Positions 4,421 to 57,440 are shown, counted from the whole stretch's first letter. The stretch: 62,916 nucleotides of DNA, filler included, from Octopus bimaculoides (GCF_001194135.2; 7 parts of 7 records of this genome joined end to end with filler, not necessarily neighbours in it); one strand, 5' to 3'. Numbers and translations are program-made. The notes: generated by a model from the sequence alone, not told the origin.

Positions 4421-4482
4421 ATTGGGCTGAAGATCAGAATAGAGTAACTTCATACTCTTAACCGTGAAACGTCGTACCCAAT
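4421..4482 (+). ncRNA. Type I hammerhead ribozyme motif, core intact
   Basis: ATTGGG-CTGAAGA-[stem II with AGAGTA/TACTCT]-GAA-ACG-T-CGT-A-CCCAAT: 6-bp helix I, palindromic helix III, GUA site; base of helix II poorly paired. Confidence 0.75.
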
Positions 4483-4663
4483 TAACTAAAGGCAGGTTTG
4501 TTTTTGCTTTTCTCTTCTGTTTTTTGTTCTGTGTGTGCCATAAATATCACCATCCGTTAGGGAAAAAATTTGTAGTTTGGAATCAGTAGTTCTTTGACTG
4601 CTATTTCTAAATTCTCAGTATGTTGGAGAAGCAACTCATGCTAATTCCTGTATATTTATGATT

Positions 4664-4684
<21 letters not shown>

Positions 4685-4702
<18 letters not shown>

Positions 4703-4863
4703 CATATGACGGGTTTCTTTCAGTTTCCGTCTGCCAAATCCACTCACAAGGCTTTGGTCGCTCCGAGGCTATAGTAGAAGACACTTGCCCAAGATGCCAT
4801 GCAATGGGACTGAACCTAGAACCATGTGGTTGGGAAGCAAGCTTCTTACCACACAGCCACTCC
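4685..4863 (-). mobile_element. SINE family A, 5' half
   Basis: Matches head to GAAACTGAAAGAA segment of family A. Confidence 0.8.
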
Positions 4864-4996
4864 AGCACCTATAAATTCAATATTTGCTTAATAATACTGA
4901 GTATTAATTGAAACAGCTGTAAGTGAAGATGATTAATTTGTTGTTAATAATAAATAATTATTAACTTCCCAATCTACATTTTCTTTTTCTTCTATA

Positions 4997-5335
4997 TGAA
5001 GGCTCATGGCTTAGTGCTTAGATCATCGAGCTTACAATCGTGAGGTTGTGAGTTCGATTCCTGGACTGGACTCTGTGTTGTGTTCTTGAGCAAGACACTT
5101 TATTTCATGTTGCTCCAATTCACTCAGCTGTAGAAATGAGTTGTGACATCACAGGTGCCAAGCTGTATTGGCCCCTTTGCCTTTCTCTTGGATAACATCA
5201 CTGGTGTGGAGAGGGGAGGCCAGTATGCATGGCCGACTGCTGGTCTTCCATAAACAACCTTGCCTGGACTTGTGCCTGGGAGGGGAACTTTCTAGATGCA
5301 ATCCCAAGGTCAGTCATGACCAAAGGGGATCACGA
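4997..5335 (+). mobile_element. SINE family C variant
   Basis: tRNA-like head and TTGAGCAAGACACTT block; body matches the reverse-strand copy at 14800-15135. Confidence 0.75.
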
Positions 5336-5619
5336 CAACGATGACGATTATAAACCATGTTTTTATGTGAATGCAAATGGCATTTAAAATTTATGACAGC
5401 TCTTTCAGTAGTATTTTATTTAATGCAGTTATAAAAGATTACATAATCAGAATATAATCTCTCGTCAAAAGATAAAACCTTAAAAAGCGTAAGATTATAA
5501 ACATTGACCCAGACATAACCAAGATTAACCGGATTAGGTACTTGCATATCTATGGTAGCCTACCAACACTTGATGTATTCAATGTTGTTTGTTTCACTGT
5601 GCTTTGGTTCTTATGAATC

Positions 5620-6035
5620 CATCATCATCATCATTTAACATCCATTTTCCATGCTGGTATGGGTTGGACGATTTGACAGAAGCTGACCATCTGTTTCAGA
5701 ATGGTTTCTATGGCTGGATGCCCTTCCTAACACCAACCATTTTATGGGGTGTGCCGGGTACTCTTACACAGCACCAGCATGGGTGTTTTAAATGTGGCAT
5801 CAACACCCATGATAAGCCTGCAAGATTAGGGATGCTCAGCTGGAGAGGGTTGCAAGAGATGAGCCTTTATGCAAGGGCAATCACGCTTTTACTTAGCTTC
5901 ACGTGTCTTTTCAAGCACAGCAAACAGACGGGTCTCGGTCCCCTATCATCCCCTCTGTGAGTTTCAACATCTGTAGATCCTCATCACTTCATCCCATGTC
6001 TTCCTGAGTCTACCCCTTCCACTAACAAAATCATA
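5620..6035 (-). mobile_element. RTE-clade LINE 3' end (ORF C-terminus, 3' UTR, (GAT)n tail), 5'-truncated
   Basis: Minus frame GRGRLRKTWDEVMR...GDRD matches the RTE C-terminal GRPRKTW motif, followed by the family D tail. Confidence 0.75.
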
Positions 6036-7069
6036 GAAGGGCATCCTGGCGTTAGTAAGGGTATCCAGCTGTAGAAACTTTGCCAGATAAGATTGGAGCC
6101 TGGTGCAGCCTTCTGGCATGGGTTGGACGGTTTGACTGAGGGCCAGCAAGCTGGAGAGCTGCACTACGTTCCAGTCTGATTTGGCAGGGTTTCTATGCCC
6201 TTCCTCATGCCAACCATTTTACTGAGTGTGCTGTGTGCTTTTAACATGGCACCAGCACAGGTGCCTCTATTGTGACGCCAGCGCAGGTGCTGTTATGTGG
6301 TGCTGACACGGGTGCTCTTTATATGGTGCAGCACATGCACTTTTTACATGGCACCTGCACAGGGCACAAATGGCAGGCTTCCTTCAGTTTCCATCTACCA
6401 AATTCTCTCACAAGGCATCAGTCAGTATGGGGCTATAGTAGAAGACACTTGCCCAAGGTGCTATATGGTGGGATTGAAACAGGAACCGTGTGGTTGCAAA
6501 GTGAGCTTTTTAACCACATGGCCATGCCTGCATTTAATTGCATATATTCTATTACATATAATGTTTATACAAATACACATGGATTTGTATATATGTATAA
6601 ATCTATATATTTATTTATATACACATATATACATTATACACACACATATGTGTTCATATTTATATATATAACGTTATATATAAATATGTACATACACACA
6701 CACGCACATGCACCTTCTAATTCTGCCAAGATACTCCATACTCAAGACAAATGCAGACCTAACTTGATACAAAGACTAACCATTCCTGTATCGGAGAGGG
6801 TTTTTATTTTCCAAACAATATCCTAATTTAATCAATCCTTAACCATTTGTCTGTAAATAGATTAGCATCACGTCTTTCCCTTTCTCACTCAGACACACAT
6901 TCACACACACACACACAGCCACATATTCTTGTTGTAGCCATTGTTCAAGTCAATAAGCTAGACTGGTCTTCAACAATGGTGACACAGTTAGTGACTGCCT
7001 TCTCCATTAACTGTGAAATCTTAAGACATTATTCCATTGCTGTCTTTTAATGAGGTAACACTGCCACCT

Positions 7070-7105
<36 letters not shown>

Positions 7106-7527
7106 ATAATAATAATAATAATAATAATAATGGTGGTGGTGGTGGTGGTGATGGTTATTGTCCTGGTTGAATGGTGGCTGGTTCTGGTCAGCTCTGGTCA
7201 GTTCTGACCAGGTAGATTTTATGAAACTTGGGTGGCCACTTATTGTTAGCTGTACTGTAGTTGCTGCTGCTGCTGCTGCTATTGTTGTCGTTGCAGTTGC
7301 TGCTGTTTTTGTTGTTGTTGTCCTTTTTATTGTTGATGTTGTTGTTGCTGTTATTGTTGTAGTTGCTGTTGTGTTGTTTTTGTTGCTGCTGCTGTTTTTG
7401 TTGTTCTTGTTGTCTAGCTTGTAGTCAGTCTTCATTAAACATACCTATAACGAAACATGACATTCTGGCCATGACCATCCAAAATTTTATCTCAGATTTT
7501 ATTTTCCAGTATTTCCTCACCTTTGTG

Positions 7528-7564
<37 letters not shown>

Positions 7565-7829
7565 TAAACAGTAAGTTGTGATTTGAGAGAAGTTTGGCTG
7601 CTATTTCTAACAGTCGAGTGACCACTTAGGAGCTTCTTTTTTAGTTCACTGGTTGCCAGTCTCTGAAACTGTGATTCCACAGGGCTTTTGATCCATGGAT
7701 CCAGATGATATCTCCTGCCTCAACCTTGTTGGAGTGGTTTATTGGGTTAATTGGAATGGTCTGGGGATAGGGTTAGGGTTTGAAAATGGAGGAGGGGAAC
7801 AGACAAAGAAATAGACAGATAGATAGATA

Positions 7830-7979
7830 GATAGATAGATATACAGACAGACAGAGAGAGAGAGAGAGAGAAAGACAAACAGAAAGGCTTGGTAGGTAGG
7901 TAGAGAGAGAGAGAGAGAGAAAGACAAACAGAAAGGCTTGCTAGGTAGGTAGGTAGGTAGAGAGAGNNNNNNNNNNNNN

Positions 7980-8031
<52 letters not shown>

Positions 8032-8138
8032 AACAGAAAGGCTTGCTAGGTAGGTAGGTAGAGAGAGAGAGAGAGAGAGGGGGCAAGCACACAGACAGAC
8101 AGGCATACAAGCAGACAGACAGGTAGGTAGAGATAGAC

Positions 8139-8172
<34 letters not shown>

Positions 8173-8175
8173 GTT
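7830..8175. repeat. Compound (GA)n/(GGTA)n/(GATA)n array with repeated spacer AAAGACAAACAGAAAGGCTTG
   Basis: Three copies of the spacer visible between microsatellite blocks. Confidence 0.85.
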
Positions 8176-8606
8176 ATGTTCGTAGATGGACAGACAGAAA
8201 GACAAACAGGTCCATTGATTGATTGTTCAATAAATTGATCGATTGATTTTGGGAGGCTAGTTAAATGGGAAAATGTATGAATGAATGATTTGATCCAAGG
8301 ACAGATATTATAACATATACATACACCCACACTCACGTGTACGAGCTACATAAAACCGTGTATGTCTCTGTAACATATTGATAAATAAATATGGCCAGAG
8401 ATGATCAATAGCCGTTATCTATAAAGGTTATAGAGTTGTAGTTTAACTTTAATACTTAAAAATCTTGTGTGAACGATACCTCCGGGCCTAAAATTTTGGC
8501 TTTTAAATTATTGCCACACTAAAGATATACATAGTTATGTCCCTTGCATTGGTGAACCGTTTTCATGGGTTTTAATGAGACGCAAGGAAATTTATTAGAC
8601 GAAGTT

Positions 8607-8845
8607 AGGGCGGCGAGCTGGCAGAATCGTTAGCACGCCGGGCGAAATGCTTAGCGGTATTTCGTCTGCCATTACATTCTGAGTTCAAATTCCGCCGAAG
8701 TCGACTTTGCCTTTCATCCTTTCGGGGTCGATTAAATAAGTACCAGTTACGCACTGGGGTTCATGTAATTGACTTCATCCCTTTGTCTGTCCTTGTTTGT
8801 CCACTGTATGTTTAGCCCCTTGTGAGTAATAAAGAAATAAGAATC
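8607..8845 (+). mobile_element. SINE family B, young-looking copy with many CpGs; a second partial copy follows to about 9030
   Basis: GGCGGCGAGCTGGCAGAATCGTTAGCACGCCGGGCG...GTCGACTTTGCCTTTCATCCTTTCGGGGTCGAT. Confidence 0.85.
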
Positions 8846-9264
8846 GTTATTAGCACGCAGGACAAAATGTACTGCGGTATTTCGTCCGCAAAGGTCAACT
8901 TTTACGAGGTTATCTCCTCAAGGTCGATAAAATAAATACCAGTTGATTGAGCACTGGGAGAGGGGTGTTGATGTAATCGACTTAGCTCCTCCCTCGAAAT
9001 TGCTGGCCTTGTGCCAAAATTTGAAACATTATTAGACGAAGTTTAATGAGGGGACAAATACCAGTAATATGTTGAGGTCGATTATAATAAGCTGTTCCTC
9101 AAACAGCATTACCTTGAAATTTTGGTTTTGGTCAATTAGAAATTATTTTCAAATACTTTATGGTGGCAAACGATGGCACAGAAGAAAAGATGTTTTTATG
9201 TACCCCTGCGTGTGTGTATGAGAGAGAGAAACAGAGAGAGAAAGAGCCTCTTTGTATCTATCTA

Positions 9265-9307
<43 letters not shown>

Positions 9308-9358
9308 CTCTATCTGTCTATCTATCTAACCATCTGTCTGTCTACATATTTATCTACC

Positions 9359-9395
<37 letters not shown>

Positions 9396-9402
9396 GCGTG
9401 TA

Positions 9403-9461
<59 letters not shown>

Positions 9462-9905
9462 AAATGAATAGAAAATGGAGATATATTTCACAATTGCCAA
9501 TTCAAAAATTAAAATTTAAAATTTATAATAATAAAACATTATATAATCAATTATAGATATTAAATATAGATTACATACAATTGTTTCGATTCTTACCCAT
9601 AATAAAATTATAAACATCCATTGTTTGTGGGCAAGAATCTCCTCAGTGTAGTTTTTTATATATGTGGATTCACAGATATGTATGTATGTATGTATGTCAT
9701 TATTCAGTTTATTTCAAGATTTCTCGCCAATAGAGACAGAACCAATTTCTAACCTAGATCCAAGGTCTCCTTCATTGGAATTTCAACATCAACAGCAGGG
9801 TATTTTTGTATGTATATATATGTATGTGCAGATTTGTATGTTTTGTTTTATGTAAATATTCTCATGCATATAGTTGCATACTAAACATGCTCATATATAT
9901 TTTAG

Positions 9906-10089
9906 CCCTTTCATTACTGTATTTATTTTGAGGTGCTCTGTGTTTCTTTCAATTAATTTTAAATATAACAAAGAATTTAGTAAAATAATTTAGTTATCAT
10001 TCAGCTAGTGTTAGGAACATAAATTGTGACTAAGGTTTGGTGGAAGATTTTAATTCAAAACTTATGAAAACAAGACATTTGTACTCAGA
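9906..10089 (+). mobile_element. Partial copy of the piggyBac-like MITE, cut by gap
   Basis: Aligns to 19441-19612. Confidence 0.75.
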
Positions 10090-10395
10090 NNNNNNNNNNN
10101 NNNNNNNNNNNNNNNNNNNNNNNNNNNNNNNNNNNNNNNNNNNNNNNNNNNNNNNNNNNNNNNNNNNNNNNNNNNNNNNNNNNNNNNNNNNNNNNNNNNN
10201 NNNNNNNNNNNNNNNNNNNNNNNNNNNNNNNNNNNNNNNNNNNNNNNNNNNNNNNNNNNNNNNNNNNNNNNNNNNNNNNNNNNNNNNNNNNNNNNNNNNN
10301 NNNNNNNNNNNNNNNNNNNNNNNNNNNNNNNNNNNNNNNNNNNNNNNNNNNNNNNNNNNNNNNNNNNNNNNNNNNNNNNNNNNNNNNNNNNNNNN

Positions 10396-10560
10396 ATCTG
10401 TAGTCTTCGAATTATCTTTCTCCTTTCTGGTTTTGAGAAGCCTAATTTCTCAAGATTGGTATTTAGGCAGTGTGTTACATATCCCAGTGCCCCAATGATT
10501 ACAGGTATAAAGCTGAACTTGTAATCTGGATCGAGTAACTGCAGATTTCTCAATAGATCA
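10396..10560 (-). mobile_element. R4/Dong-like REL endonuclease C-terminal fragment
   Basis: LLRNLQLLDPDYKFSFIPVIIGALGYVTHCLNTNLEKLGF: P-IIGALG...L--LG motif at the end of restriction-like endonuclease ORFs. Confidence 0.7.
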
Positions 10561-11307
10561 GCCTAATTGTTCTCTTTTTCACTGATCTTCAGTTTTATGT
10601 TAACATCCGCTGGGCAGCTAATTCACACAACTCTGCACAGTTTCTCTTCTCTATCCCAAATCATTATATCAGGTCTGTATGTATGTGTATGTGTAGGTAT
10701 ATGTCTACCTTTCTACCTGTTTACCTATCTCTTTGCCTCCGTCTATCCAGCTATTTATCCAGGCAGCTGATTGTCTGTCTATCACTAAGCGTCTCTGTCT
10801 GTCAGTCTGTCTGTCAGTCTTTGTGTATCTTTCCTTCAACCTGTCAGTCAGTCAATTTTTCCCTGACCCCTATCTTTCCTTTCCATCACAACTAAGACAA
10901 AGAAACCAAACCCTAATCTCCAGATTATTCAAAGGGATTTATTTTCCTGTTGCTGTTTAGCCTAGGTCGGTCCTGTTTGAGCTGATCTTATGATTAAAGG
11001 CACTTCAGTCAGCGACGCTGGACATAGACATCCACATGAAACCAGGGTGTGAATGTGACTAAAACTTACTAAATGTGTGGGGGGGGTGCAGTTAAACAGT
11101 TTTCTTGGTTACTGATGAGATCTTGGTATAAGTATTGAAACTTGTCTGGATGCTCGCTCTCCCCCCCCNNNNNNNNNNNNNNNNNNNNNNNNNNNNNNNN
11201 NNNNNNNNNNNNNNNNNNNNNNNNNNNNNNNNNNNNNNNNNNNNNNNNNNNNNNNNNNNNNNNNNNNNNNNNNNNNNNNNNNNNNNNNNNNNNNNNNNNN
11301 NNNNNNN

Positions 11308-11349
<42 letters not shown>

Positions 11350-11764
11350 GTATGTATGTATGTATGTATTTGTGTGTCTGTGTTTGCCCCCTACCATTGC
11401 TTGACAACCAATGTTAGTGTGTTTACTTAGCAGTCCAGCAAAAGAGACCGATAGAATAAGTACTAGGCTTACAAAGTGTGAGTCCTGGGGTCAATTCGTT
11501 CGACTAAAGGTGTTGCTCCAGCATGGCCGCAGTGAAATGACTGAAACAAGTAAAAGAATAAAAGAATTATTAAGAATTCTATAAAAATAAAGTCGTTAAA
11601 ATATTTTTTTGTGTATTTTAGAAGTATAACCAATTTGTTGCAGATGAATTTTAACAACAATGTTTTTTTTGTGGGGTCTGGGGGCGGCAAATGGAAGGGC
11701 CATCCCTGATGGCACACACTCTAGCTATGCTAGTGCCTTCTACTCAACCAGGTATTCATTTCTA

Positions 11765-12210
11765 CTCTAGGCACACGGCCCGAAATTTTTGTGGAGTGGG
11801 GGGCCAGTCAATTAGATTGACCCCAGTGTTCAACTGATGCTTATTTTATCGACCCCAAAAGGATGAAAGGTGAAGTCAACCTCGACAGAATTTGAACTCA
11901 GAACATAAAGACACGAATTCCCACTAAGCAGTTTGTCCAGCATGCTAACATTTCTGCCAGCTAGCTACCTTTAATAATAATAATAATAATAATAATCTTT
12001 TCTACTCTAGGCACAAGACCGAAAATTTGGGGGGAGGGAGGTCATTTGATTAGATCGACCTCAGTACGCAACTGGTACTTAATTTATCAACCCTGAAAGG
12101 ATGAAAGGCAAAGTCAACCTTGGCGGAATTTGAACTCAGAACGTAAAGACAGATGAAATACCGTTAAGCATTTCGCCCAGCATGCTAACGGCTCTGCCAG
12201 CTCACTGCCT
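11765..12210 (-). mobile_element. Head-to-tail pair of family B SINEs joined by an (ATT)n tail
   Basis: Two successive reverse-complement copies (about 11765-11972 and 11998-12210) separated by (AAT)n. Confidence 0.8.
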
Positions 12211-41138: not shown

Positions 41139-41189
<51 letters not shown>

Positions 41190-41439: not shown

Positions 41440-41483
<44 letters not shown>

Positions 41484-43281
41484 GCGCGCACACACCTATC
41501 CACTACAACCACAGAACTAGCCATGCCCTCCACTTCAGACGCATCATAACAACGCTGTCACAGCCCAATGAACAAAGCAGCAAACACCTTTGTAAATTTG
41601 GAAAAGGGGAAATAGAGAGAGGGAGGAAGAACTCAGTGGAACCATTTCCATCATGAAAAATCATCTAAGTCGGCAGTAAATGATGGAACAACATCAACAG
41701 CAACAACAACAACAACGCTACCACCATCAATGCAACAACATCAACAACAATGTAATTCCTAGTATAAACGCAACAGTATATATACACACATAGACACACA
41801 CATATACGATGAAACAATTGTAAACGCATCCTTCCAAAAATAAATAAATAAATAGATAAAAAAAAACAGCCCATCCAATAAGAAGATAATATAAATACAT
41901 CCCTAATTGCAAAACGGAACAAACAAACCTGATCAAAACTAGGACCAACCTCCAAACACAAATAATATCAACAACAGACAGAACAGAGATAAAACTCAGC
42001 ATGAAACAACTTTAAAATAAACAGTGAAACAATAAAGAAAATAAAACATGGAGAATGCAAAAACTGGCAATCATTTGTGGTTAATATAAAGCGTGAAATA
42101 ATTAAAGGAAACAACATATAAAGCAATTAGCAGCAGCAGTAGCATCAACAACTACGGCCCCATAATACGGCGTATCACAACCATCATCGTCATCAGCATC
42201 GTTAGACCTCATTTACTGTCAGCAGATTCAGTATCAAGGATTTTCATTCGGGTCTTTCCTATGCCATTCTCTCGCATTCGATATTTTAATCCAGTCGCTG
42301 TTAATAAACCAGTTCTAAGTCTTCATCTCGACTCTTTATCGATTTCCTAGAAAAAAGTTTTTATATAACTTCTGCTCCTCTTCCTACGATATTCTTTCGG
42401 TTTGAGACTACAAAATGGATGTGAAAAGTTATCGTAAGCAATCAACATTAAAGGATTGAAATTTTGCTAAAATAGAAAATTTTTGGTTTTTTTGTTTCGG
42501 AATCGTAATCTCTATATCTTTGGCACCACCCAACCGGAAGCCTGAACCGAAGGCTCGTCACAAAGAGAATTCCGTTGAAGAGGAATCGAGTATTAAAAAA
42601 AAAGGAAAAAGAAAAAGTGAAAAATAGAATATGATAGGAAAGTTGGGGTTAATTCAAAATTTGAAGATCTTTCGGAGGTTGGAGGGCAAAATCGCAATCT
42701 CCGTTGTTGGAGTCAGAGAAATGCGAAGAAATCTTAAACAAAATGGCGCGGAGTGTTGCAATGGATATGTCCACCTGGACATTAACGGATTCTGCCAATA
42801 TTAATAAATACTTTCTTTTTTAATGCTCATAAGCCGAAAGAATGCTTATGTAATAATTATCAAGAAAAAAAGGAAGGAAAAGAATTTCCGGGAAAACGCT
42901 CGGTCATTTACGTAAAGAAAGAAACGGGGAGCAAAAACAAACAAACAAACAAAAGGAAAAAAGTATTTCTCTCGCAGAATTTTCAAAAACTCCATTCAAT
43001 CATCCATGTTCCTTCACTTTTTACTTTTCTTTAATTCCAATTCAAAAATATTCCACCTAATTAAGGCAGGGACAAATCGCTACATGTGTATGTATGTATG
43101 TGTGTGTGTGTGCGCTTGTTTGTGTATGCTTGTATGTGTGTGTGTGGGCGTGCGTGTGTCTGAAACACAATGAAATATTGCTTAGTTGTCGGCCATATAA
43201 ATTTGAACCACATTATATAATCATTCGCCATGGTTGATCGCTAGCCACTAAACCTTCCTCTCCCTGTTTCTCTCTCTGTTC

Positions 43282-43317
43282 CTTTCTGTTGAAGAGCGTA
43301 GGCTCGAAACGTAAAAG
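43282..43317 (+). ncRNA. Degenerate minimal hammerhead motif
   Basis: CTTT-CTGTTGA-A-GAGC-GTAG-GCTC-GAA-AC-GT-A-AAAG; A6U core change. Confidence 0.55.
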
Positions 43318-43650
43318 ACTTTCTCACTTCCCGAGCGTTAACTAATACATCTGTTGTTTACACACCCGTCTTCGTCTTTTGTTGCTTTTTTTTTTTTTGT
43401 AAATTCCAACTACATGCATACATCCATCAATCCACCCGTCCATCCATCCATCCACACATACGTACATACATAATATTATTTTATAAGCTTAAAGCTTATA
43501 AGCAATCACTGTGCATTGACTATGGTAAATCGCCTAATACCGGGGCTTAANNNNNNNNNNNNNNNNNNNNNNNNNNNNNNNNNNNNNNNNNNNNTTAATT
43601 AATTAANNNNNNNNNNNNNNNNNNNNNNNNNNNNNNNNNNNNNNNNNNNN

Positions 43651-43930
43651 CGTGTACCCTTAACGTAGTTCTCGGGGGGGATATTCAGCGTGACACAGTG
43701 TGACAAGGCTGACCCTTTGAATTACAAGCACAACAGAAACAGGAAGTAAGAGTGAGAGAAAGTTGTGGTGAAAGAGTACAGCAGAGTTCGCCACCATCCC
43801 CTGCCGGAGCCTCGTGGAACTTTAGGTGTTTTCGCTCAATAAACACTCACAACGCCCGGTCTGGGAATCGAAACCACGATCCTATGACCGCGAGTCCGCT
43901 GCCTTAACCACTGGGCCATTGCGCCTCCAC
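43651..43930 (-). mobile_element. tRNA-derived SINE (family C subfamily) overlapping the ZNF-A stop codon; cut by gap
   Basis: Reverse complement of the 49353 copy starting GTGGAGGCGCAATGGCCCAGTGG. Confidence 0.9.
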
Positions 43931-45024
43931 TCTGTGTGACTGTATTCGTGTCCTGTCAATTGGTATTTATATAAGAATGATTCACCACAGGTATTGCAAT
44001 GATATGGCTTCTCTCCTGTATGAATCCGTCTGTGTACATGTAAGTTACCTTTTTGAGAGAATGATTTTCCACAGACATCACAGTGATATGTGTGCTCAAC
44101 TGTATGATCTGATTTCTGAAATTTTAAACTTTCCAAAGAGAATGGTTTATCACAGATATCGCAATGAAATGGCTTCTCTTCTGTATGGATATCTTTGTGT
44201 TTTATCAAATCACCTGCTTGAAAAAATGATTTCTGACAGATATCACACTGGTATGGCTTCTCTCCTGTATGAATGTATTGATGAATTTGGAAACGACGTT
44301 TCTGAGAAAAGGATTTACCACAAATATCACACTGGTATGGTTTCTTTCTTGAATGAATACATCTGTGTCTAATTAATAGGCTAGAATCAGAGAATGATTT
44401 ACCACAGATGCCGCAACAATGATATGATTTTTCTGTGGGAATACACTGGTGTTCAGTTAAAAGGCCAATTTCAAAGAATAATTTACCACAGATACCACAA
44501 CCGTATGGCTTCCCTTTTGTATGAATCTGTTTGTGATTTCTTAAATGATAACTTTGAGAGAATGATACACCGCATACTTCACAGAGATATGGCTTCTCTC
44601 CTGTATGAATACGCTTATGAGATCTCAAGTGATGCTTCTGAGAGAATGATGCATGACAGATGTTACAGCGATATGGCTTCTCCCCTTTATGAATACGTCT
44701 ATGTTTAGTCAGTTGGCCACCTTTGGGGAATGATTTACCACAGATATCGCAACAAAATCGTTTGTGCCTAGCTAAGGCATTTTTTATAGAGAATGACTTA
44801 CCACATGCATCACAATGATATGGCTTCTCTCCTGAATGAATTTGGTTGTGAGCAAGTAAGTCATCTTCCTGAGCGAACGACATGCCACAGATTTCACAGC
44901 GAAATGCTTTCTGTGGTTCATGAAGAAGTTTATGGATAGTTAACTCCCCTTTTTCAGAGAATACTTTATTACAAATGTCACACAGAAATGGTGAATCTCT
45001 TATCGCTTTCAGCATCTCTTCCAT
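43882..45024 (-). CDS. C2H2 zinc-finger protein ZNF-A, 380 aa, 13 finger units (3 atypical), no effector domain visible
   Basis: Uninterrupted ORF of C-x2-C-x12-H-x3-H units with TGEKPY-type linkers. Confidence 0.92.
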
Positions 45025-45186
45025 TAAAATTTACCCTTTTTTTTTTTTAAGACCTTCACATTAATTTCTCATCACGATATACACATAGTTTTCTTGTTTT
45101 TGTTTTAATATTATATTTGTTATATTATTATATCTTCCAGTTATGCTTTTCCATCAACTGCAACCTTCACTAATATCTAAAGAAGC

Positions 45187-48227: not shown

Positions 48228-48779
48228 GTAAGCTATATAATCTATATCATTTTGTAAAAGTAAGGTGAACGTCGGCAATTGTAAACCTATTGATGTTGCT
48301 GATCAAAGATCGATATTAATTGTGTTGTCCTGCACTGATTGTCTGAAGTTAGTAATTAAACAGATTTAATTAATTACGAAGCAAATCAACAATATATTTA
48401 TTACTCTAGATCATTCTCTGAATTACCATCCATGATTGTATAGGAATCTCTTAATGAACATACAATAGTAGAATAATAAACATTTCCCATTGTTACACCA
48501 TCAAAGCATATTAATTATTATTTAATTATTTGGATATTAATTAATATAGTCCAGGTGTCGTCGAAAATCTTGGCTCCCTCGTCACATACCCCGCTCTTTG
48601 ACATTCCTTATATGCCTAACAGTAGTGAATTATAATTAATACAACAGGTACACGTGAAAATAGATATTTAGAAAAGATATTTAAAATAAAACTACACACA
48701 ATAATATTATTACAATCGTTAGAATATGGTAGTAATCTTGTAGAATAGAGTCAGAAATTATCTTGAGGGTCCGGCCTTG

Positions 48780-49132
48780 AAGAATTTTTAGCCGAATGAA
48801 TCGACCTCTGTACTTTTTCTTTCTTTTTTTCTTTCGGCTGGTACTTATACTATCGTTTTCTTTTGCCGAACCGTTAAGTTACGGGGATGTAAACACACCA
48901 TCTCCACTTGTCAAGTGGTGGTGGGGAACAAACATAGACAAGAACACACACACGTAGATAGATAGATAGAAACACGCCGGACTTCTTTCAGTTTCTGTCG
49001 ATCAAATGCATTTACAAGGCTTGATGTTGACCTGGGGCGAAAATAGAAGACATTTACTAAAGGTGCCGTACGGCGAGACTAAACCTGGAACCATGTGATT
49101 GGGAAGCAAACTTCTTACAACACAGCCACTCC
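48780..49132 (-). mobile_element. SINE family A, diverged
   Basis: Reverse-complement match to family A head and 3' module. Confidence 0.7.
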
Positions 49133-49352
49133 TCCAAAATCCTTAATTTCTTCAGATTTGGGCGGAATTCTGCTCTAAGTATGCCTTGTAACCCCTTATA
49201 ACTTTTTTTTTTTTTGTTTGGAATTTTCAGAAAATTTTTCCGAATTTGTGTGCTACACACAGGAACTGTGACTTTAACAAAACTTAGAAAAACTTTAATT
49301 TTTTTTTTCTTTGAATGTCGAAAAAAAATTTTCATAATGTTCTCATAGTCCT

Positions 49353-49727
49353 GTGGAGGCGCAATGGCCCAGTGGTTAGGGCAGCGGACTAGCGGTCATA
49401 GGATCGCGGTTTCGATTCCCCGACCGGGCGTTTTGAGTGTTTATTGAGCGAAAACACCTAAAGCTCCACGAGGCTCTGGCAAGGGATGGTGGCGAACCCT
49501 GCTGTACTCTTTCACCACAACTTTCTCTCACTCTTACTTCCTGTTTCTGTTGTGCCTGTAATTCAAAGAGTCAGCCTTGTCACACTGAATATACCCCGAG
49601 AACTACGTTAAGAGTACACGTGTCTGTGGAGTGCTCAGCCACTTGCATATTAATTTCACGAGCAGGCTGTTCCGTTGATCGGATCAACTGGAACCCTCGA
49701 TGTCGTAAGCGACGGAGTGCCAACAAT
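49353..49727 (+). mobile_element. tRNA-derived SINE (family C subfamily), full length
   Basis: A-box TGGCCCAGTGG, B-box GGTTTCGATTCC, body shared with 43651-43930 and 998-1324. Confidence 0.9.
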
Positions 49728-49903
49728 GATTGTAACAATGGTGAAAAAAATATCAATGTTAATTCATTGATGCATTTGGGTGAGTCTGTCTGTATTATCA
49801 AACAATTGCAAAAAAAATGTTTAAAGAAAATTCAAAACTCTGCAAAAATCTAATACAAATTCTTCACGGCTCAAACATTGCTTACTTTTTACTCAACCGG
49901 ATA
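49727..49903 (-). mobile_element. Mariner 5' end fragment with TIR
   Basis: 49727-49862 aligns to 53658-53792; TTGCTTACTTTTTACTCAACCGGATA is the inverse of the 52780 TIR TATCAGGCTGAGTAAAGAGTAAGCAA. Confidence 0.8.
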
Positions 49904-50111
49904 GATAAACATACACGCATATCACATCATAATATATAGGTTTATGATCACAATGACAGCAGTGTTTATAACAATATGCATACATCTACAAAAATTGAAG
50001 GAAACTTAAAGTTCAATTATTCCAGTAAAGTGTTAATATCTTTTGGTTTTCTCTATAAAAATGTAAAATTTCCACCGTTCCATCTTTACTTTGTAAGTAT
50101 CCTCTATATCT

Positions 50112-50149
50112 CACATTCTTGTTTCTCTATTATTATTTCAGAATATCAG
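50112..50149 (+). promoter_or_regulatory. Predicted 3' splice site of the ZNF-B coding exon (AG at 50140-50141)
   Basis: Pyrimidine tract followed by TATTTCAG|AATATCAG. Confidence 0.65.
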
Positions 50150-50573
50150 AAACAGTGAAGAACCATTTACTTATGATACTTCTTCAATATTTATCATTTT
50201 TGAAAGACTGAAGGAAATTGTTGCACAGAACAGAAATAATTCTGTTTATATGAATCCATGGTGACTTCCTGATAAATATTTTTTTAGAACTCAGATAAAT
50301 ATCAATACCTGTGTTTTGGGGGGTTTTTTTCAGTGCCTAAAAAAGTGTATAAACTGATTTTGCATTCTAATTTCTCTTTTTCCATTGCATATAATATCTA
50401 CAACATCATTTCACAAACTTCGTAGAAGTGGAAAAAATTTACAAAAGAGTTTGTAGCATCTTCAGATAAAAAGTTCGCCATTGATGAAAATATAACAGCA
50501 GTAATATTTACTAGGAATAAAAGAATAAAATCAAAAAGAAAATCATCTGTATATTGTGGTAAGAAGAAGAAAA

Positions 50574-51761
50574 ATGATGGAAAATGAGTTAAGTCAGATG
50601 GTTACACATGAAACAGCAACTGAAAAGATTGTCTTTTCTGACGATTTAAAGAATGTGAAAAGTAAAAAGTCATATCATTGTGATACCTGCGGTAAATCAT
50701 TTTCTCAAAATAGCAAACTAACTAAACATAAATCTATTCATACAGGAGAAAAACCATATCATTGTGATGTCTGTGATAAATCATTCTCACAAAAAGACTA
50801 CCTAACCACTCACCTACGTGTTCACACAGGTGAAAAGCCATATCAGTGTGACATCTGTGATAAGTCGTTCTCTCAAAGTGTTCACTTAACTAAACACAAA
50901 CGCATTCATACAGGGGAAAAGCCATATTTCTGTGATGTCTGTTGTAAATCATTTGCTGAGAATGGTACCTTGACTAGACATAAACGTATTCACACAGGGG
51001 AAAGGCCATATGAATGTGATATCTGTAATAAATCATTTACTCAAAAGGATAACTTAACTACTCACCAACGCATTCATACAGGAGAAAAACCATATTGTTG
51101 TGATGTCTGCGGTGAATCATTCTCGCAAAACGTACACTTAACTAAACACAGAAGCATTCATACAGGAGGAAAACTTTATTTCTGTGATATTTGTGATAAA
51201 TCATTCACTGAAAAAAGTTCCTTAAAAAGACACATCCGCATTCATACAGGTGATAAACCATATCACTGTGATATCTGTTTCAGATCGTTCTCTGAGAATC
51301 ATACCTTAACTATTCACAAACGCAGCCATACAGGAGAAAAGCCATATCATTGCGACAGTTGTGGTAAATCATTCTCCGACACTGGTCATTTAGCTAGGCA
51401 TGTACGTATTCATACGGGAGACAAACCACATCACTGCGATATCTGTGGAAAGTCCTTCTCTGAAAATGGAGATTTAACAAGACATATCCGCATTCATACA
51501 GGAGAGAAGCCATATCAGTGCGACATTTGTAGTAAATCATTCTCTCATGGACATGCCTTAACTACTCACAAACGCACTCATACAGGAGAGAAACCATATC
51601 ACTGCAATGTCTGTGGTAAATCCTTCTCTGAAACTGGTCACTTAAGTAGACACAAACGCATTCATACAGGACTGAAGCTACATCACTGTGATATCTGTGG
51701 TAAACCTTTCTCCGAAATAAGTCATTTAACTGAACATATTGCTATTCATACAGAACAGTAA
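50574..51761 (+). CDS. C2H2 zinc-finger protein ZNF-B, 395 aa from first ATG, 13 canonical fingers, no effector domain visible
   Basis: Uninterrupted [11 protein letters not shown]...HIAIHTEQ*; all 13 fingers retain four ligands and TGEKP-like linkers. Confidence 0.95.
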
Positions 51762-51789
51762 CAATATCAAAATATGGGGTCAAAATACA

Positions 51790-51876
51790 TAGGAGTGGCT
51801 GTGTGGTAAGTAGCTTGCTTACCAACCACATGGCTCCAGGTTCAGTCCCACTGCGTGGCACCTTGGGCAAGTGTGT
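51790..51876 (+). mobile_element. SINE family A head only
   Basis: GGAGTGGCTGTGTGGTAAG...GGTTCAGTCCCACTGCGTGGCACCTTGGGCAAGTG. Confidence 0.8.
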
Positions 51877-51913
51877 TCATTTTGTTCATTAAAGTATTTC
51901 CTTTTACTCATTA

Positions 51914-51945
<32 letters not shown>

Positions 51946-52377
51946 TGTATTTTGGGATGGTCGGTTTTTTTTTTTGTTTTTGTTTTTGCCAAATAAATGC
52001 CTGCACTATATATTCGTTCTTCACCCTTTTATTACTTCTCTTATTTTCACTCTTGTTGATTGTCCAGAAATCTTTCATCACACACCTGTGACCTCTTCGG
52101 CAACACTTTCTGTCCTCGTGTATGCTCCTGCTCTGCTTCCGGAAATATAAGAATATCTATTTCAACACACTGTTTCAGATCAGGAATCTTGCAACACAAA
52201 TTCATAAATGTGTGTGTGTGTGTGTGTGTATTTGTATTTGTATGTATGTGAAAGATCCCACCTACAAATAACTCTGATGGAGATTGAAAGAAGCCTGCAA
52301 CAATCCTATGTGAAGGAGAGAGCAGAAAAAGAAACCTGGGTTATAAAAAACATCAAGTTAAATCCCAAAGGCCTGAA

Positions 52378-52442
<65 letters not shown>

Positions 52443-52594
52443 TCCCTAACGAGGACAAGATATCCTTGAATTGACTACACACACACATACATACNNNNNN
52501 NNNNNNNNNNNNNNNNNNNNNNNNNNNNNNNNNNNNNNTTAATTAATTAANNNNNNNNNNNNNNNNNNNNNNNNNNNNNNNNNNNNNNNNNNNN

Positions 52595-52776
52595 GGTGAC
52601 ACGTAAAAGCACCCACTACACTCTCTGAGTGGTTGGCGTTAGGAAGGGCATCCAGCTGTAGAAACTCTGCCAAATCAGACTGGAGCCTAGTGTTGCCATC
52701 CAGTTTCACCAGTCCTCAGTCAAATCGTCCAACCCATGCTAGCATGGAAAGCGGACGTTAAACGATGATGATGATG
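52595..52776 (+). mobile_element. Family D (RTE-type) 3' tail
   Basis: Near-identical to 59175-59353; ends in (GAT)n. Confidence 0.8.
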
Positions 52777-52779
52777 GTA

Positions 52780-53792
52780 TATCAGGCTGAGTAAAGAGTA
52801 AGCAACATTTTGAAACGTGAAATTCATCACAATGTATTTCAACAATGTGAAAATTTTATTCATCAAAGTAAGTAGTACCATTACAATCAACACATTTTTG
52901 TCAACGAATTACAAGTTTGTTTATTCCGGTAACAAGTTTAGGAACTGATGAATTCTTTGAACACACTTTCAGCATCGGTTTGATTTTTGAACTCCGTCTC
53001 ACAGGAAACCATCAAGGTGATTGAAAAAGTGGTAGTCAATAGGAGAAAGGTCTGGGGAATATGCTGGGTGAAGAACTTCGTAGCCAAGTCCCCTCATAAC
53101 CTTCTTTTTGAAGAGCTTGGGTTTAGGGAAGGTTTTCAGTGCTTCCTTTTGGTCCAACCACTGTGAGGTATGTTTTTATTATTGTACAGAATCCACTTTT
53201 CATTGCATGTTACAATACAGGCGAGAAATGGATCAGTCTAGTTATGGAGAAGAAGTGACAAGCAAATTTCATATCTGCGCATTTTCTGATTTTCATTCAA
53301 TAGTGTGGTACCTATTTGCCGATCATTTTTGATTTTCCGATTGCATGCAAATGGTTGCACACAGTTTTCTGCCAATTCTTTTGCTAATTCTCAAGTGGTT
53401 TTATGTGGATCTTTCTCAATAATGGTCTTTAATTGACTGTCATTGATGACAGATGGGCGTCCATTATGCTCACAATCTTCAAGGCTCAGGTCTCTTCTGT
53501 GAAATCGTTTAAACCATTTTTGAGCTGGCTACTCACTGGTCATTTCTCCACCAAATGTTTTGTTAATATTGTGAGCAGTTTCAGCTGCTTTATGTCATTT
53601 TTTGAAGTTGAATAGGAAAATTGCTCGAATATCACGCTTTGACAGTTCCATTTCAGATGATTGTAACAATGGTGAAAAAGATATCAATGTTAATTTATTG
53701 ATGCATTTGGGTAAGTCTATGTCAGTATTATCAGACAGTTTTAAAAAAATGTTTAAAAAAAATTCAAAACTGCAAAAATTTGGTACAAATTC
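52780..53792 (-). mobile_element. Mariner DNA transposon, internally deleted; 5' TIR presumably in the gap
   Basis: TA then TATCAGG TIR at 52778-52786; transposase remnant inside. Confidence 0.9.
52856..53651 (-). pseudogene. Mariner DD34D transposase pseudogene (Hsmar1/SETMAR-like)
   Basis: MELSKRDIRAIFLFNFK...AAETAHNIN...WFKRF...GRPS; IVTCNEKW; KKVM; HPAYSPDLSPIDYHFF; QKCVDCNG...YFDE*; multiple stops and frameshifts. Confidence 0.9.
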
Positions 53793-54058
53793 NNNNNNNN
53801 NNNNNNNNNNNNNNNNNNNNNNNNNNNNNNNNNNNNNNNNNNNNNNNNNNNNNNNNNNNNNNNNNNNNNNNNNNNNNNNNNNNNNNNNNNNNNNNNNNNN
53901 NNNNNNNNNNNNNNNNNNNNNNNNNNNNNNNNNNNNNNNNNNNNNNNNNNNNNNNNNNNNNNNNNNNNNNNNNNNNNNNNNNNNNNNNNNNNNNNNNNNN
54001 NNNNNNNNNNNNNNNNNNNNNNNNNNNNNNNNNNNNNNNNNNNNNNNNNNNNNNNNNN

Positions 54059-54100
<42 letters not shown>

Positions 54101-54529
54101 GATATATAAATACAGGTATATATCAAATAGATAGATAAATAGATTGATAGTTAGATATATAGATACACTGATGTATACACAAACACAGACACATACTCAC
54201 ACACACACACACACTCACACACACACACACAATTATATATAAATTTGTATAATGTTATTTAAATTGCATGACATTTAAAACTCAGTGTACATCCTTATAT
54301 GCTGAAAGAGAAAACTGTAAAAGAGAAGCTGTGTTTTATAGTCCAAATTTCTTTTCACTGGTTTCTATTGTTACAAAGATGACAGAGTACATATAGGAAA
54401 AAAAGAAACAAAACAAAACTGGAGCATTAGTTCATAATTAAATAATTTATGAACCAACCCTCCAGGTTTGTTTTCTCTTTTTCTTTTGCATACGTAAATA
54501 CATTTATATTCATACATACATACATATGC

Positions 54530-54756
54530 ATGCACTTACATACATACATAGATATGTACATGCATGCAAACATACATGGTTTTATAGATATATATGTATA
54601 CACACAAATATATATATATATATATATGATACCAGCACACAAACATACATACATGTATATATGTCTACATACATATATACATACATACATACATACACAC
54701 ATGCACATATACATACACAAGTATGTATATATGTATACACACTCATGAACACACAC

Positions 54757-54790
<34 letters not shown>

Positions 54791-54825
54791 TCGCACAGAC
54801 ACAGACACAGATACACATACACACA

Positions 54826-54865
<40 letters not shown>

Positions 54866-55152
54866 GGCTGACAGAAGCTGACAGAAGCAATCAAACTTAC
54901 ATAGATACATACATACATATGTACATGCATGCATACATACATTGTTTTATAAATATATATGTATACACACACATATATATATATACCTGCACACAAACTT
55001 ACATACATGTATATATGTCTACATACATACATACATACATACATGCACATATACATACACAAGTATGTATATATGTATACACACTCATGAACACACATAT
55101 ACACACACACACACACTTGCAGACACAGACACACATACACACACAGACACAG

Positions 55153-55218
<66 letters not shown>

Positions 55219-55235
55219 GCTGACAGAAGCAAGCA
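54530..55235. repeat. Tandem duplication of a ~350-bp compound microsatellite unit
   Basis: Unique anchors CACAAGTATGTATATATGTATACACACTCATGAACAC and GGCTGACAGAAGC occur in both halves. Confidence 0.85.
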
Positions 55236-55413
55236 AGCTGAAACTGAAGTCACTGCTAATTTTTTCCTTGTAAAAGTTTAATAAGCATGTACTCTACTAA
55301 AAATATTTTTATGTATTATAGTATGCATCTTTCAGCTTAATTTGGTTTTATATATGACTTGACATAAAAACAAGCATTAATATATCTATCTTTAGACTTG
55401 CATACGTAGACAC

Positions 55414-55790
55414 AGGAGTGGCTGTGTGATAAGTAGCTTCCTAACCAACCACATGGTTTCGGGTTCAATTCCACTGCATGGCACCTTCAGCAAGTATCTT
55501 CTACTATAGATTCAGACCGATCAAAGCCTTGTGAGACAGAAACTGAAAGAAGCTCGTCATATATATATATGTATATGTTTGTGTGCCTGTGTTTTTCCCC
55601 CCCATCATTGCTTGACAACCGATGTTGGTGTGGTTACGTCCCTATCACCTAGCGGTTTAGCAATAAGCGACCGATAGAACAAGTACTAGGCTTACAAAAA
55701 ATAAGCCCTGGGGTTGATTTGCTCGACTAAAGATAGTGCTCCAGCATGGCCACAGTCAAATGACTGAAACAAATAAAATAATAAAAGAAT
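55414..55790 (+). mobile_element. SINE family A, full length
   Basis: Head, TA tract and 3' module present. Confidence 0.8.
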
Positions 55791-55901
55791 ACATATATAC
55801 ANNNNNNNNNNNNNNNNNNNNNNNNNNNNNNNNNNNNNNNNNNNNTTAATTAATTAANNNNNNNNNNNNNNNNNNNNNNNNNNNNNNNNNNNNNNNNNNN
55901 N

Positions 55902-55940
<39 letters not shown>

Positions 55941-56145
55941 CATACATATACATGCGCACAAACGCACACACACATATTTGATCACATTTTTCTGGTGAAT
56001 AACGAAAAACTGATGTCAGGTTCTTGTCATTTCACGCCCACCCCATTGAATTCTGTTGGTGTTTGATCTGTATTAACAAGCACTTTTTCATTCAAGTTAT
56101 ATGTATTTGTGTGTGTGTGTGTGTGTGTGTGTATACATATATACG

Positions 56146-56177
<32 letters not shown>

Positions 56178-57319
56178 ATACAAAGAATATATATAGATGT
56201 ATACACACATATATGTACATACTTACATCTACATGTGTATATAGATGCATATCAGGGTACAGGACGTTAGAACAATGAACTACAGACAACAGAACGAACA
56301 CATAGGAACGGAAAGCCACTTGGAATATCCCTTCATCAGCTGTCTCTATTCTAACTAGACGTTTCGAAGANNNNNNNNNNNNNNNNNNNNNNNNNNNNNN
56401 NNNNNNNNNNNNNNNNNNNNNNNNNNNNNNNNNNNNNNNNNNNNNNNNNNNNNNNNNNNNNNNNNNNNNNNNNNNNNNNNNNNNNNNNNNNNNNNNNNNN
56501 NNNNNNNNNNNNNNNNNNNNNNNNNNNNNNNNNNNNNNNNNNNNNNNNNNNNNNNNNNNNNNNNNNNNNNNNNNNNNNNNNNNNNNNNNNNNNNNNNNNN
56601 NNNNNNNNNNNNNNNNNNNNNNNNNNNNNNNNNNNNNNNNNNNNNNNNNNNNNNNNNNNNNNNNNNNNNNNNNNNNNNNNNNNNNNNNNNNNNNNNNNNN
56701 NNNNNNNNNNNNNNNNNNNNNNNNNNNNNNNNNNNNNNNNNNNNNNNNNNNNNNNNNNNNNNNNNNNNNNNNNNNNNNNNNNNNNNNNNNNNNNNNNNNN
56801 NNNNNNNNNNNNNNNNNNNNNNNNNNNNNNNNNNNNNNNNNNNNNNNNNNNNNNNNNNNNNNNNNNNNNNNNNNNNNNNNNNNNNNNNNNNNNNNNNNNN
56901 NNNNNNNNNNNNNNNNNNNNNNNNNNNNNNNNNNNNNNNNNNNNNNNNNNNNNNNNNNNNNNNNNNNNNNNNNNNNNNNNNNNNNNNNNNNNNNNNNNNN
57001 NNNNNNNNNNNNNNNNNNNNNNNNNNNNNNNNNNNNNNNNNNNNNNNNNNNNNNNNNNNNNNNNNNNNNNNNNNNNNNNNNNNNNNNNNNNNNNNNNNNN
57101 NNNNNNNNNNNNNNNNNNNNNNNNNNNNNNNNNNNNNNNNNNNNNNNNNNNNNNNNNNNNNNNNNNNNNNNNNNNNNNNNNNNNNNNNNNNNNNNNNNNN
57201 NNNNNNNNNNNNNNNNNNNNNNNNNNNNNNNNNNNNNNNNNNNNNNNNNNNNNNNNNNNNNNNNNNNNNNNNNNNNNNNNNNNNNNNNNNNNNNNNNNNN
57301 NNNNNNNNNNNNNNNNTTT

Positions 57320-57440
57320 ATTAAAAAGCAGCAAAAATATCACAAAAACTGTTACTCAGAGTTTCACGTTAAAACTGTCCGACGAATGGGAACGTGAAAC
57401 TCTGAGTAACAGTTTTTGTGATATTTTGCTGCTTTTTAAT
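57320..57440. repeat. Fold-back inverted repeat, 50-51-nt arms, 20-nt loop
   Basis: 57320-57370 versus 57391-57440, differing by one 1-nt indel. Confidence 0.92.
57371..57416 (+). ncRNA. Type I hammerhead ribozyme motif with U4C variant
   Basis: AAAACTGT-CCGACGA-ATG-GGAA-CGT-GAA-ACTC-T-GAGT-A-ACAGTTTT: 8-bp helix I, 3-bp helix II, palindromic helix III, GUA site. Confidence 0.72.

What the first reader, a model, noticed from the sequence alone, without database searches (positions are those of the whole stretch)
4421..57416. Five sequence-unrelated type I hammerhead motifs in one 63-kb window, sharing a palindromic helix III design
Seen: hammerhead topologies at 4421 (+), 14110 (+), 24722 (-), 43282 (+) and 57371 (+), plus a partial GAAAC-GUC running into the gap at about 56353-56370 (-). 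Helix III is a palindrome with a 0-1 nt loop (ACG-T-CGT, ACTC-GGGT, AC-GT, ACTC-T-GAGT). Three motifs lie in or within about 250 nt of long fold-back repeats. Established: Penelope-like elements and non-LTR retrozymes in animals carry minimal type I hammerheads whose palindromic helix III folds as a dimer. Inference: several distinct non-autonomous PLE or retrozyme families are scattered through this genome at high density. No Penelope RT or GIY-YIG ORF is visible here, so the motifs may be an overlooked self-cleaving RNA component of this repeatome.
Basis: partly seen in the sequence, partly recalled or inferred. Interest (0 to 1): 0.75.

Follow-up and report, generated by a model that had tools for sequence, protein, structure and literature searches.

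The report
Penelope tail hammerheads with altered cores
The five motifs are hammerhead-shaped tail ends of four very common jumping-gene families of a known kind; three carry core letters changed across the whole family, which is predicted to slow self-cutting, and the copies were likely made from uncut RNA.

Summary
The five type I hammerhead motifs are real and exceed shuffles. But the window packs seven separate stretches, its motif density is near the genome average, and 14110 and 43282 are sister lineages, not unrelated.

Each motif lies near the 3' end of a high-copy family in (TA)n tracts:
- 43282 (A) is the tail of a decayed Neptune-type Penelope-like element; its RT, linker and GIY-YIG were found elsewhere in the genome.
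- 57371 (D) is the tail of a Hydra-type element.
- 24722 (B) and 4421 (C) are non-coding 358- and 570-nt retrozyme-like units.
- The partial motif reads best as a permuted (SGC) hammerhead.

This kind of element is published. Not found in the papers I could search:
- Family-wide cores. A6U occurs in 96 of 100 listed copies (4,263 matches) and 35 of 35 copies picked without the motif. U4C occurs in A2, D and a B-related family.
- 5' ends pile up at an initiator-like CATT upstream of the ribozyme, and 0 of 30 start at the cut.

Copies were likely made from uncut RNA; cleavage is untested. The scan noted A6U before in other genomes and hammerhead tails in this one.

The parts
3935..4025 (-). Family C inverted arm; its outer end falls at the family's second fixed 3' end
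4022..4669 (+). Family C direct arm: one 570-nt non-coding unit plus a 78-nt terminal repeat, ending in (TA)n
4421..4482 (+). Family C type I hammerhead: canonical CUGAAGA, extended helix II, helix III ACG-U-CGU, predicted cut after 4476; this copy has a private G->A in helix II
14070..14237 (+). Family A2 tail, sister of A, 5'-truncated, ending in (TA)n
14110..14144 (+). A2 hammerhead: CCGAAGA (U4C), bulged A, helix II GAGC/GCUC; private G16.2->A
24678..24900 (-). Family B copy, part of a 358-nt non-coding permuted unit
24722..24766 (-). Family B hammerhead: canonical CUGAUGA, helix III ACUC/GGGU, GUC triplet
43222..43411 (+). Family A tail of a Neptune-type element; starts exactly at the initiator-like CATTCG where family 5' ends pile up
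43282..43317 (+). Family A hammerhead: CUGUUGA (A6U), bulged A, helix III AC/GU, predicted cut after 43313
56244..56370 (-). Family E: 3' half of a likely permuted (SGC-order) hammerhead, cut off by the assembly gap
57317..57370 (-). Family D inverted arm ending near the inner fixed 3' end (+36 from the cut)
57371..57509 (+). Family D direct arm, tail of a Hydra-type element
57371..57416 (+). Family D hammerhead: CCGACGA (U4C), helix III ACUC-U-GAGU, predicted cut after 57408
59984..60155 (-). Second family B fragment without the hammerhead

Best explanation
The five motifs are hammerhead-shaped sequences near the 3' ends of four high-copy Penelope-type families (a decayed Neptune-type element with its sister lineage, a decayed Hydra-type element, and two protein-less units), likely pasted into (TA)n tracts by reverse transcription of uncut RNA, and three carry family-wide core changes predicted to slow cutting. 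Shown: family membership, parent ORFs for A and D, fixed 3' ends, inverted arms, the core variants, and the positions of the 5' ends. Inferred: transcription starts at an initiator-like CATT 47-105 nt upstream of the cut site. The element's RT starts about 105 nt downstream of the cut (D also at +42) and runs off the RNA's 5' end, leaving 150-200-nt stubs that keep the whole ribozyme. Inferred: the short helix III makes the ribozyme depend on a dimer or protein, so cutting is rare and not needed for insertion. Selection is then weak enough for A6U and U4C to be fixed while the fold is kept. Inferred: B and C borrow a Penelope-type RT and are copied in more-than-unit lengths from a tandem or circular RNA.
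For: Copy number: first-look candidates 3556 (A), 1504 (B), 1402 (C), 1812 (D), 2828 (A2). Exact patterns gave 4,263 (A) and 1,174 (D) matches with reversed controls 0. A parent: RT motifs, CSRPRCRTC linker and C-terminal GIY-YIG upstream of the motif. The fragment is 45% identical to 800-aa RT+GIY-YIG proteins whose sequence matches the Neptune1_Ap row of PMC8557442 by eye. D parent: WFNP...NIGREFLKL...KHF thumb and CNCKDKTCC linker, matching the Hydra alignment and CxCX5C. A6U: 96 of 100 listed rows, 13 of 13 motifs found downstream of 30 endonuclease-picked loci, 35 of 35 copies picked without the motif. U4C: D 90 of 100 and 18 of 21 picked by upstream UTR; A2 24 of 29, query-biased. Fold kept: N7 takes all four bases (U42, G32, C14, A12); N17 is U59, A29, C12, G0; helix I pair C-G in A against G-C in A2. 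5' ends within -4..+10 of the CATT A: 11 of 13 and 20 of 27 A copies that reach +10; 20 of 25 A2 copies (-4..+11); 19 of 36 D arms (-4..+9); P 5e-9 to 1e-16. 0 of 30 copies picked by the part downstream of the cut start at it. RNA reads cross the cut without a dip or end pile. PMC11167929 (parts 1-2 of 4 read) reports that ribozyme mutants do not impair insertion in vitro.
Against: No cleavage assay. Within family A, constrained ribozyme positions are not significantly less polymorphic than flanks (1 of 30 against 8 of 110, P=0.68). The N7/N17 contrast is post hoc (P=0.006, or 0.066 if loop 2 counts as free). Covariation in A/A2 rests on one event. Start sites are inferred only: the Inr consensus is recalled, no DPE was evident by eye, and the RNA libraries give both read directions equally and show no start pile. 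A2, B and C loci had no PLE ORF within 1.5 kb (0 tblastn hits in 90 loci with 4 Neptune-like queries), so A2's parent is inferred from homology. GIY-YIG Pfam scores of the decayed fragments are below cut-off and RVT_1 did not hit. No intact autonomous copy was seen in 30 A loci. No RT tree was built. The A2 and D samples were picked by BLAST score.
Confidence: 0.8

Rival explanations
1. The A6U and U4C motifs are working, slow ribozymes whose cut is needed at a later step, for example as dimers or when bound by the element's protein; selection keeps them active.
For: G5, G8, A9, G12-A15.1 and U16.1 are kept between A and A2 while the flanks lie about 1.1 changes per site apart. N17 was never G. 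U4C recurs in A2, D and family F, and in single copy L164. PMC3088659 (passages) says U4C lowers activity in vitro yet supports viroid infectivity, and that an A6C natural variant cleaves slowly. PMC11167929 found a protein-assisted ribozyme.
Against: No insertion or read ends at the cut. A subfamily carrying both U4A and A6U spread (11 of 100 rows). The within-family constraint test was not significant.
Confidence: 0.35
2. The 5'-end pile-up is not a start site but an RT stall or junction preference (AT microhomology with the (TA)n target), or comes from a few short master copies.
For: Many junctions abut TA runs. A weak hairpin spans the A site. Short masters could have been amplified.
Against: The pile-up sits on the same CATT in two clades and three lineages. 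The A2 and D regions fold weakly (-1.1 and -7.1 kcal/mol). Short copies are spread over different A subfamilies. The Penelope start site lies in the pLTR upstream of the ribozyme (PMC2377424 passages; PMC4209133).
Confidence: 0.25
3. All five are independent non-autonomous retrozymes spreading through abundant self-cleaved circular RNAs.
For: B and C are non-coding permuted units (longest stop-free runs 74 and 69 codons) with tandem dimers (L053, L085). C folds as a circle at z=-5.1 with strong strand asymmetry.
Against: A and D continue into PLE ORFs. RNA depth over the C ribozyme is about 4-25 per direction in about 1.8 Gb, in both directions, and the unit junction also exists in DNA. B folds weakly (z=-2.1) with no asymmetry.
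Confidence: 0.12
4. The motifs are chance matches or decayed single copies.
For: Single-motif folding z-scores are about 0; two window copies carry private damage.
Against: Thousands of copies, family-level pairing, shuffles near zero.
Confidence: 0.02

Closest known systems
Minimal type I hammerheads in pLTRs of metazoan Penelope-like elements (Cervera and de la Pena 2014, PMC4209133; parts 1-2 of 4 read)
   Same: Type I, short palindromic helix III, extra base after A9, mostly single truncated copies, some pairs on opposite strands.
   Different: The parts read name U3-A8 as a core variant, not A6U or U4C. A search of two supplementary files found none of six variant strings; file 1 and the figures could not be seen.
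Neptune clade PLEs, Neptune1_Ap (PMC8557442; passages and supplement passages)
   Same: RT, CX4CxxC linker, C-terminal GIY-YIG with CCHH, (TA)n targets; best protein homologs match the Neptune1_Ap row.
   Different: All copies seen are decayed; about 750-nt 3' UTR; A6U core.
Hydra clade PLEs, e.g. Hydra-2_Amil (PMC8557442 File S2 read)
   Same: Thumb and CxCX5C linker motifs, (TA)n targets, helix III ACUC-N-GAGU followed by A and ACAG.
   Different: Not Hydra-1_Obim (different thumb and ribozyme). The Hydra cores listed there are all CUGANGA from a canonical descriptor; D has CCGA(U/C)GA.
Metazoan non-LTR retrozymes (PMC7229834 passages; bioRxiv 10.64898/2026.07.22.740005 part 1 of 5)
   Same: B and C: non-coding units with one canonical type I core, tandem dimers, more-than-unit insertions.
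   Different: Mostly 1-2 units with PLE-style inverted arms; C is 570 nt, above the about 300-nt norm; abundant circular RNA not seen.
Poseidon element PAc (PMC11167929; parts 1-2 of 4 read)
   Same: Two RT start sites define the tail; uncut RNA is the substrate; no reads end at the cut.
   Different: Canonical core; the parts read do not describe a 5'-end pile-up at an initiator.
Type-SGC hammerheads (PMC10085705 passages)
   Same: Family E block order: cleavage site, GAAA, CUGAUGA.
   Different: Reported there from metatranscriptomes; family E has extra helices, its window copy is half hidden by a gap, and it is untested.

Membership tests
Type I hammerhead ribozyme | Three helices in the order core, helix II, GAAA, helix III, NUH, helix I | tested here: met
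   at family level for 14110 and 4421
Type I hammerhead ribozyme | Canonical CUGANGA core in B and C | tested here: met
   majority in 35 B and 38 C rows (BLAST-picked)
Type I hammerhead ribozyme | Canonical CUGANGA core in A, A2 and D | tested here: not met
   A6U and U4C fixed
Type I hammerhead ribozyme | NUH rule, N17 not G | tested here: met
   0 of 100 G in A
Type I hammerhead ribozyme | Helix covariation | tested here: inconclusive
   One compensatory pair A/A2, 93.4% of cells paired; three compensatory pairs B/F read by eye; within-A constraint not significant
Type I hammerhead ribozyme | Self-cleavage at N17 | not testable with these tools
   Indirect checks found no ends at the cut
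PLE minimal hammerhead | Short palindromic helix III | tested here: met
PLE minimal hammerhead | Extra base after A9 and G10.1-C11.1 pair | tested here: inconclusive
   Met in A and A2. B, C and D have the extra base on both sides, as many File S2 rows do
Neptune PLE (family A) | RT core motifs upstream of the linker | tested here: met
   Pfam RVT_1 missed the fragments
Neptune PLE (family A) | CX2-5CxxC linker and C-terminal GIY-YIG with CCHH | tested here: met
   PF01541 E 0.005-0.02, below cut-off
Neptune PLE (family A) | RT phylogeny within Neptune | not tested
   No tree; nearest homologs match Neptune1_Ap by eye
Hydra PLE (family D) | CxCX5C linker and Hydra thumb motifs | tested here: met
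   read by eye
Hydra PLE (family D) | RT core and phylogeny | not tested
   The fetched loci ended before the RT core
EN+ PLE insertion | (TA)n targets, 5' truncation, inverted arms, two fixed 3' ends | tested here: met
   D: 34 hits end near +108 and 17 near +42, of 86; C ends at +192 and -268. Inverted arms in B, C, D, rare in A; only one 3' end seen in A
Non-LTR retrozyme (B, C) | Non-coding unit, two consecutive units with the motif | tested here: met
   One dimer locus each (L053; L085/L089)
Non-LTR retrozyme (B, C) | Abundant monomeric linear and circular RNA | tested here: inconclusive
Type-SGC hammerhead (E) | Block order S-G-C with stems I and III pairing back | tested here: inconclusive
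   Order seen by eye in 3 relatives; MFE gave stem I in one; no covariation test

The most novel reading that the evidence does not exclude
Penelope hammerheads act as a kept RNA fold on short promoter-to-tail transcripts rather than as a needed cutter. Several lineages in one genome independently fixed core changes (A6U, U4C, U4A+A6U) and still made thousands of copies, each a run-off from an initiator in the pLTR. That amounts to a SINE-like class of Penelope mini-elements and a natural mutant series for testing what the ribozyme is for.
Probability: 0.3. Interest if true: 0.65.

Novelty: new variant of a known kind. Interest (0 to 1): 0.4.

Why it matters
What hammerheads do in Penelope-like elements is an open question; PMC8557442 calls their function unclear. 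One genome offers canonical (B, C), U4C (A2, D, F), A6U and double-variant families, several with thousands of copies, so the effect of the core on cutting can be tested side by side. The 5'-end pile-up predicts exact start sites and says the templates were uncut. Searches with a canonical CUGANGA descriptor would miss about half of the intact motifs here (3 of 6 in random DNA). The basic observation, hammerheads in Penelope tails, is ordinary.

Tried and rejected
- Rfam scan: only microsatellite-driven miRNA-type hits among the 150 listed.
- The repeat finder was swamped by microsatellites and N runs.
- Single-motif MFE folds did not beat shuffles.
- tblastn of 4 PLE proteins found nothing in the window or in 90 B, C and A2 loci.
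- Locus-specific clustering rejected: the window is a pack and its density is near background.
- Pile-up of insertion ends at the cut: A 0 of 30; B 2 of 37 non-boundary ends within 2 nt (about 0.5 expected, hand estimate); C none; D one.
- Read joints going back about 560-570 nt in C are not evidence of circles, because the same junction exists in DNA.
- The run search listed no holder on record as RNA; this says nothing either way.
- A splice-acceptor role for the pyrimidine tract before the A core was considered. I saw no donor between the CATT and the core, and no loose-end pile at the AG among the rows shown (382 rows hidden).
- The 'flank' sample mixed in A2 copies and was dropped from the statistics. 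Copies ending at assembly gaps were dropped (4, 1, 0 and 2 for the four samples used).
- Family D is not Hydra-1_Obim.
- Not in print: searches found no A6U hammerhead and no initiator pile-up. Lunse et al. 2017 on Penelope hammerhead variants is not held and may already list these cores; figures and some supplements were not visible.
Full report
Observation. The window is seven stretches. The motif-bearing ones map to C26, C23 and C30 of G000. The genome looks octopus-like; that is a guess from microsatellites, zinc-finger arrays and earlier notes. My descriptor found four of the five claimed motifs: 3 loci against 0.1 in shuffles (strict) and 5 against 0.68 (one mismatch), with 0 of 60 shuffles reaching either count. 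14110 failed because of a private change in helix III. 14110 and 43282 are homologous; the other nine pairs are not. In 335 kb of random genome a similar descriptor gave 3 canonical and 3 U4C motifs and none in 12 shuffles. About 1.0 is then expected in the window against 3 (P=0.075), so the window is not a special cluster.

Families. Each motif found a large family: 3556, 1504, 1402, 1812 and 2828 first-look candidates for A, B, C, D and A2. Exact patterns gave 4,263 A and 1,174 D matches with reversed controls of 0. Copies end in (TA)n and are 5'-truncated; B, C and D often carry inverted arms or partial tandems. D arms end at two sites, +108 and +42 from the predicted cut (34 and 17 of 86 hits), and C at +192 and -268. 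This is the tail signature described in PMC8557442 (passages) and PMC11167929 (parts 1-2 of 4).

Parents. Long A copies run upstream through about 750 nt of UTR into GIY-YIG, a CSRPRCRTC linker, thumb and RT motifs. A 269-aa piece is 45% identical to 800-aa RT+GIY-YIG proteins that match the Neptune1_Ap row by eye. Pfam scores on the decayed pieces are below cut-off, and none of 30 loci held an intact ORF. Long D copies run into a Hydra-type thumb and CxCX5C linker; D is not Hydra-1_Obim. B (358 nt) and C (570 nt) are non-coding permuted units with one dimer locus each. C folds as a circle at z=-5.1, -151 against -98 kcal/mol for the other strand; B is weak. No PLE ORF lay beside 90 A2, B or C loci or in the window.

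Cores. B and C are canonical. A has U at position 6 in 96 of 100 listed rows (hand tally), 13 of 13 motifs downstream of endonuclease-picked loci, and 35 of 35 copies picked without the motif (47 collected, 12 dropped as not spanning it). Position 7 takes all four bases. Position 17 is U59, A29, C12, never G. The 12 rows with C17 all have A4, and 11 of them also have U6. A tree from flanks alone shows these states follow subfamilies and puts A2 about 1.1 changes per site away, yet the 28-nt core block differs only at 4, 6, 7 and two loop bases. Helix I swaps C-G for G-C, which is one event. D has C4 in 90 of 100 rows and 18 of 21 UTR-picked copies; A2 in 24 of 29 query-biased rows. A B-related family F also has C4, with three compensatory pairs read by eye. 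Against ongoing constraint: within A, 1 of 30 constrained positions and 8 of 110 flank positions are polymorphic (P=0.68). The N7/N17 contrast is post hoc. PMC3088659 (passages) reports low activity for A6C and U4C, so slower cutting is predicted, not measured.

Template. Of 30 A copies picked only by sequence downstream of the cut, none starts at the cut. Instead 5' ends stop at the A of a CATT motif 47-105 nt upstream: 11 of 13 and 20 of 27 A copies, 20 of 25 A2 copies and 19 of 36 D arms, with P from 5e-9 to 1e-16 against background truncation. The window's A copy starts there. The motif resembles an initiator (consensus recalled, from no call). PMC2377424 (passages) places the Penelope start site and initiator in the pLTR, 46 nt before an intron whose end meets helix I (PMC4209133). 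I infer run-off of RT at the RNA's 5' end. Stalling or junction bias remains possible, and the A2 and D samples were picked by BLAST score. Three RNA-seq runs from one study cover A (1,545-2,607 reads each) and C (401-723) in both directions, with no start or end pile and no dip at the cut. These reads may be passengers in host transcripts. PMC11167929 already shows that cutting is not needed for insertion in vitro.

Partial motif. Three relatives show the cleavage block before GAAA and CUGAUGA after it, the SGC order of PMC10085705 (passages). It is a different family and untested.

Comparison and verdict. These work like, and by the features tested are, Penelope-like element tails (Neptune-type A, Hydra-type D) and retrozyme-like derivatives (B, C). 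A, A2 and D fail the canonical-core test, which lowers 'active ribozyme' but not 'hammerhead-derived'. Eight paper searches and supplement look-ups did not show A6U or the initiator pile-up. Lunse et al. 2017 was not held, and figures were not visible. PMC6765202 and PMC7229834 were read as passages, the 2026 preprint as part 1 of 5. The scan's own notes report A6U in other genomes and hammerhead tails in this one; a search for the pile-up found none. Those notes are not support. Verdict: new variant of a known kind, interest 0.4.

Noticed in passing
window 43885-45030 (-) and 50529-51758 (+): Two divergent C2H2 zinc-finger ORFs (382 aa with 10 fingers; 410 aa with 13) and a 235-nt inverted repeat at 43696-43930 / 49353-49587.
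   Followed up: no
window 13810-13966: 158-nt self-inverted hairpin, 91% paired, no hammerhead; one partial relative in L225.
   Followed up: partly
window 4663-4863 and about 14 other window sites: Very common SINE-like repeat directly after the family C insertion.
   Followed up: no
L219, L229, L246: Family F: U4C hammerhead in a unit related to family B, 3 copies in 335 kb of random DNA.
   Followed up: partly
L161:849 and 1108, L133, L108: Another canonical hammerhead family in head-to-head pairs; 6 hits in 4 random loci.
   Followed up: no
L164:2336, L138: Sister hammerheads, one U4C and one canonical, weakly related to family C; the L164 copy lies just upstream of a gap and a GIY-YIG ORF.
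   Followed up: partly
window 3965-4645, RNA reads: A>G (26-30 places) and T>C (16-18) dominate the read differences, as expected for editing of fold-back RNA, though alleles and other copies could explain it.
   Followed up: no
family A, 45 nt upstream of the core: Branch-point-like motif and a long pyrimidine tract; the U4A subfamily creates a TTTCAG acceptor-like site. No donor was seen.
   Followed up: partly
G000: 2,390 GIY-YIG candidates, 112 of 150 scored passing the E-value limit: a very large load of Penelope-like elements.
   Followed up: partly
window 2947 (+), 11112 (+), 45537 (+), 52100 (-): Weak descriptor hits with G-U-rich helix I, probably chance.
   Followed up: no
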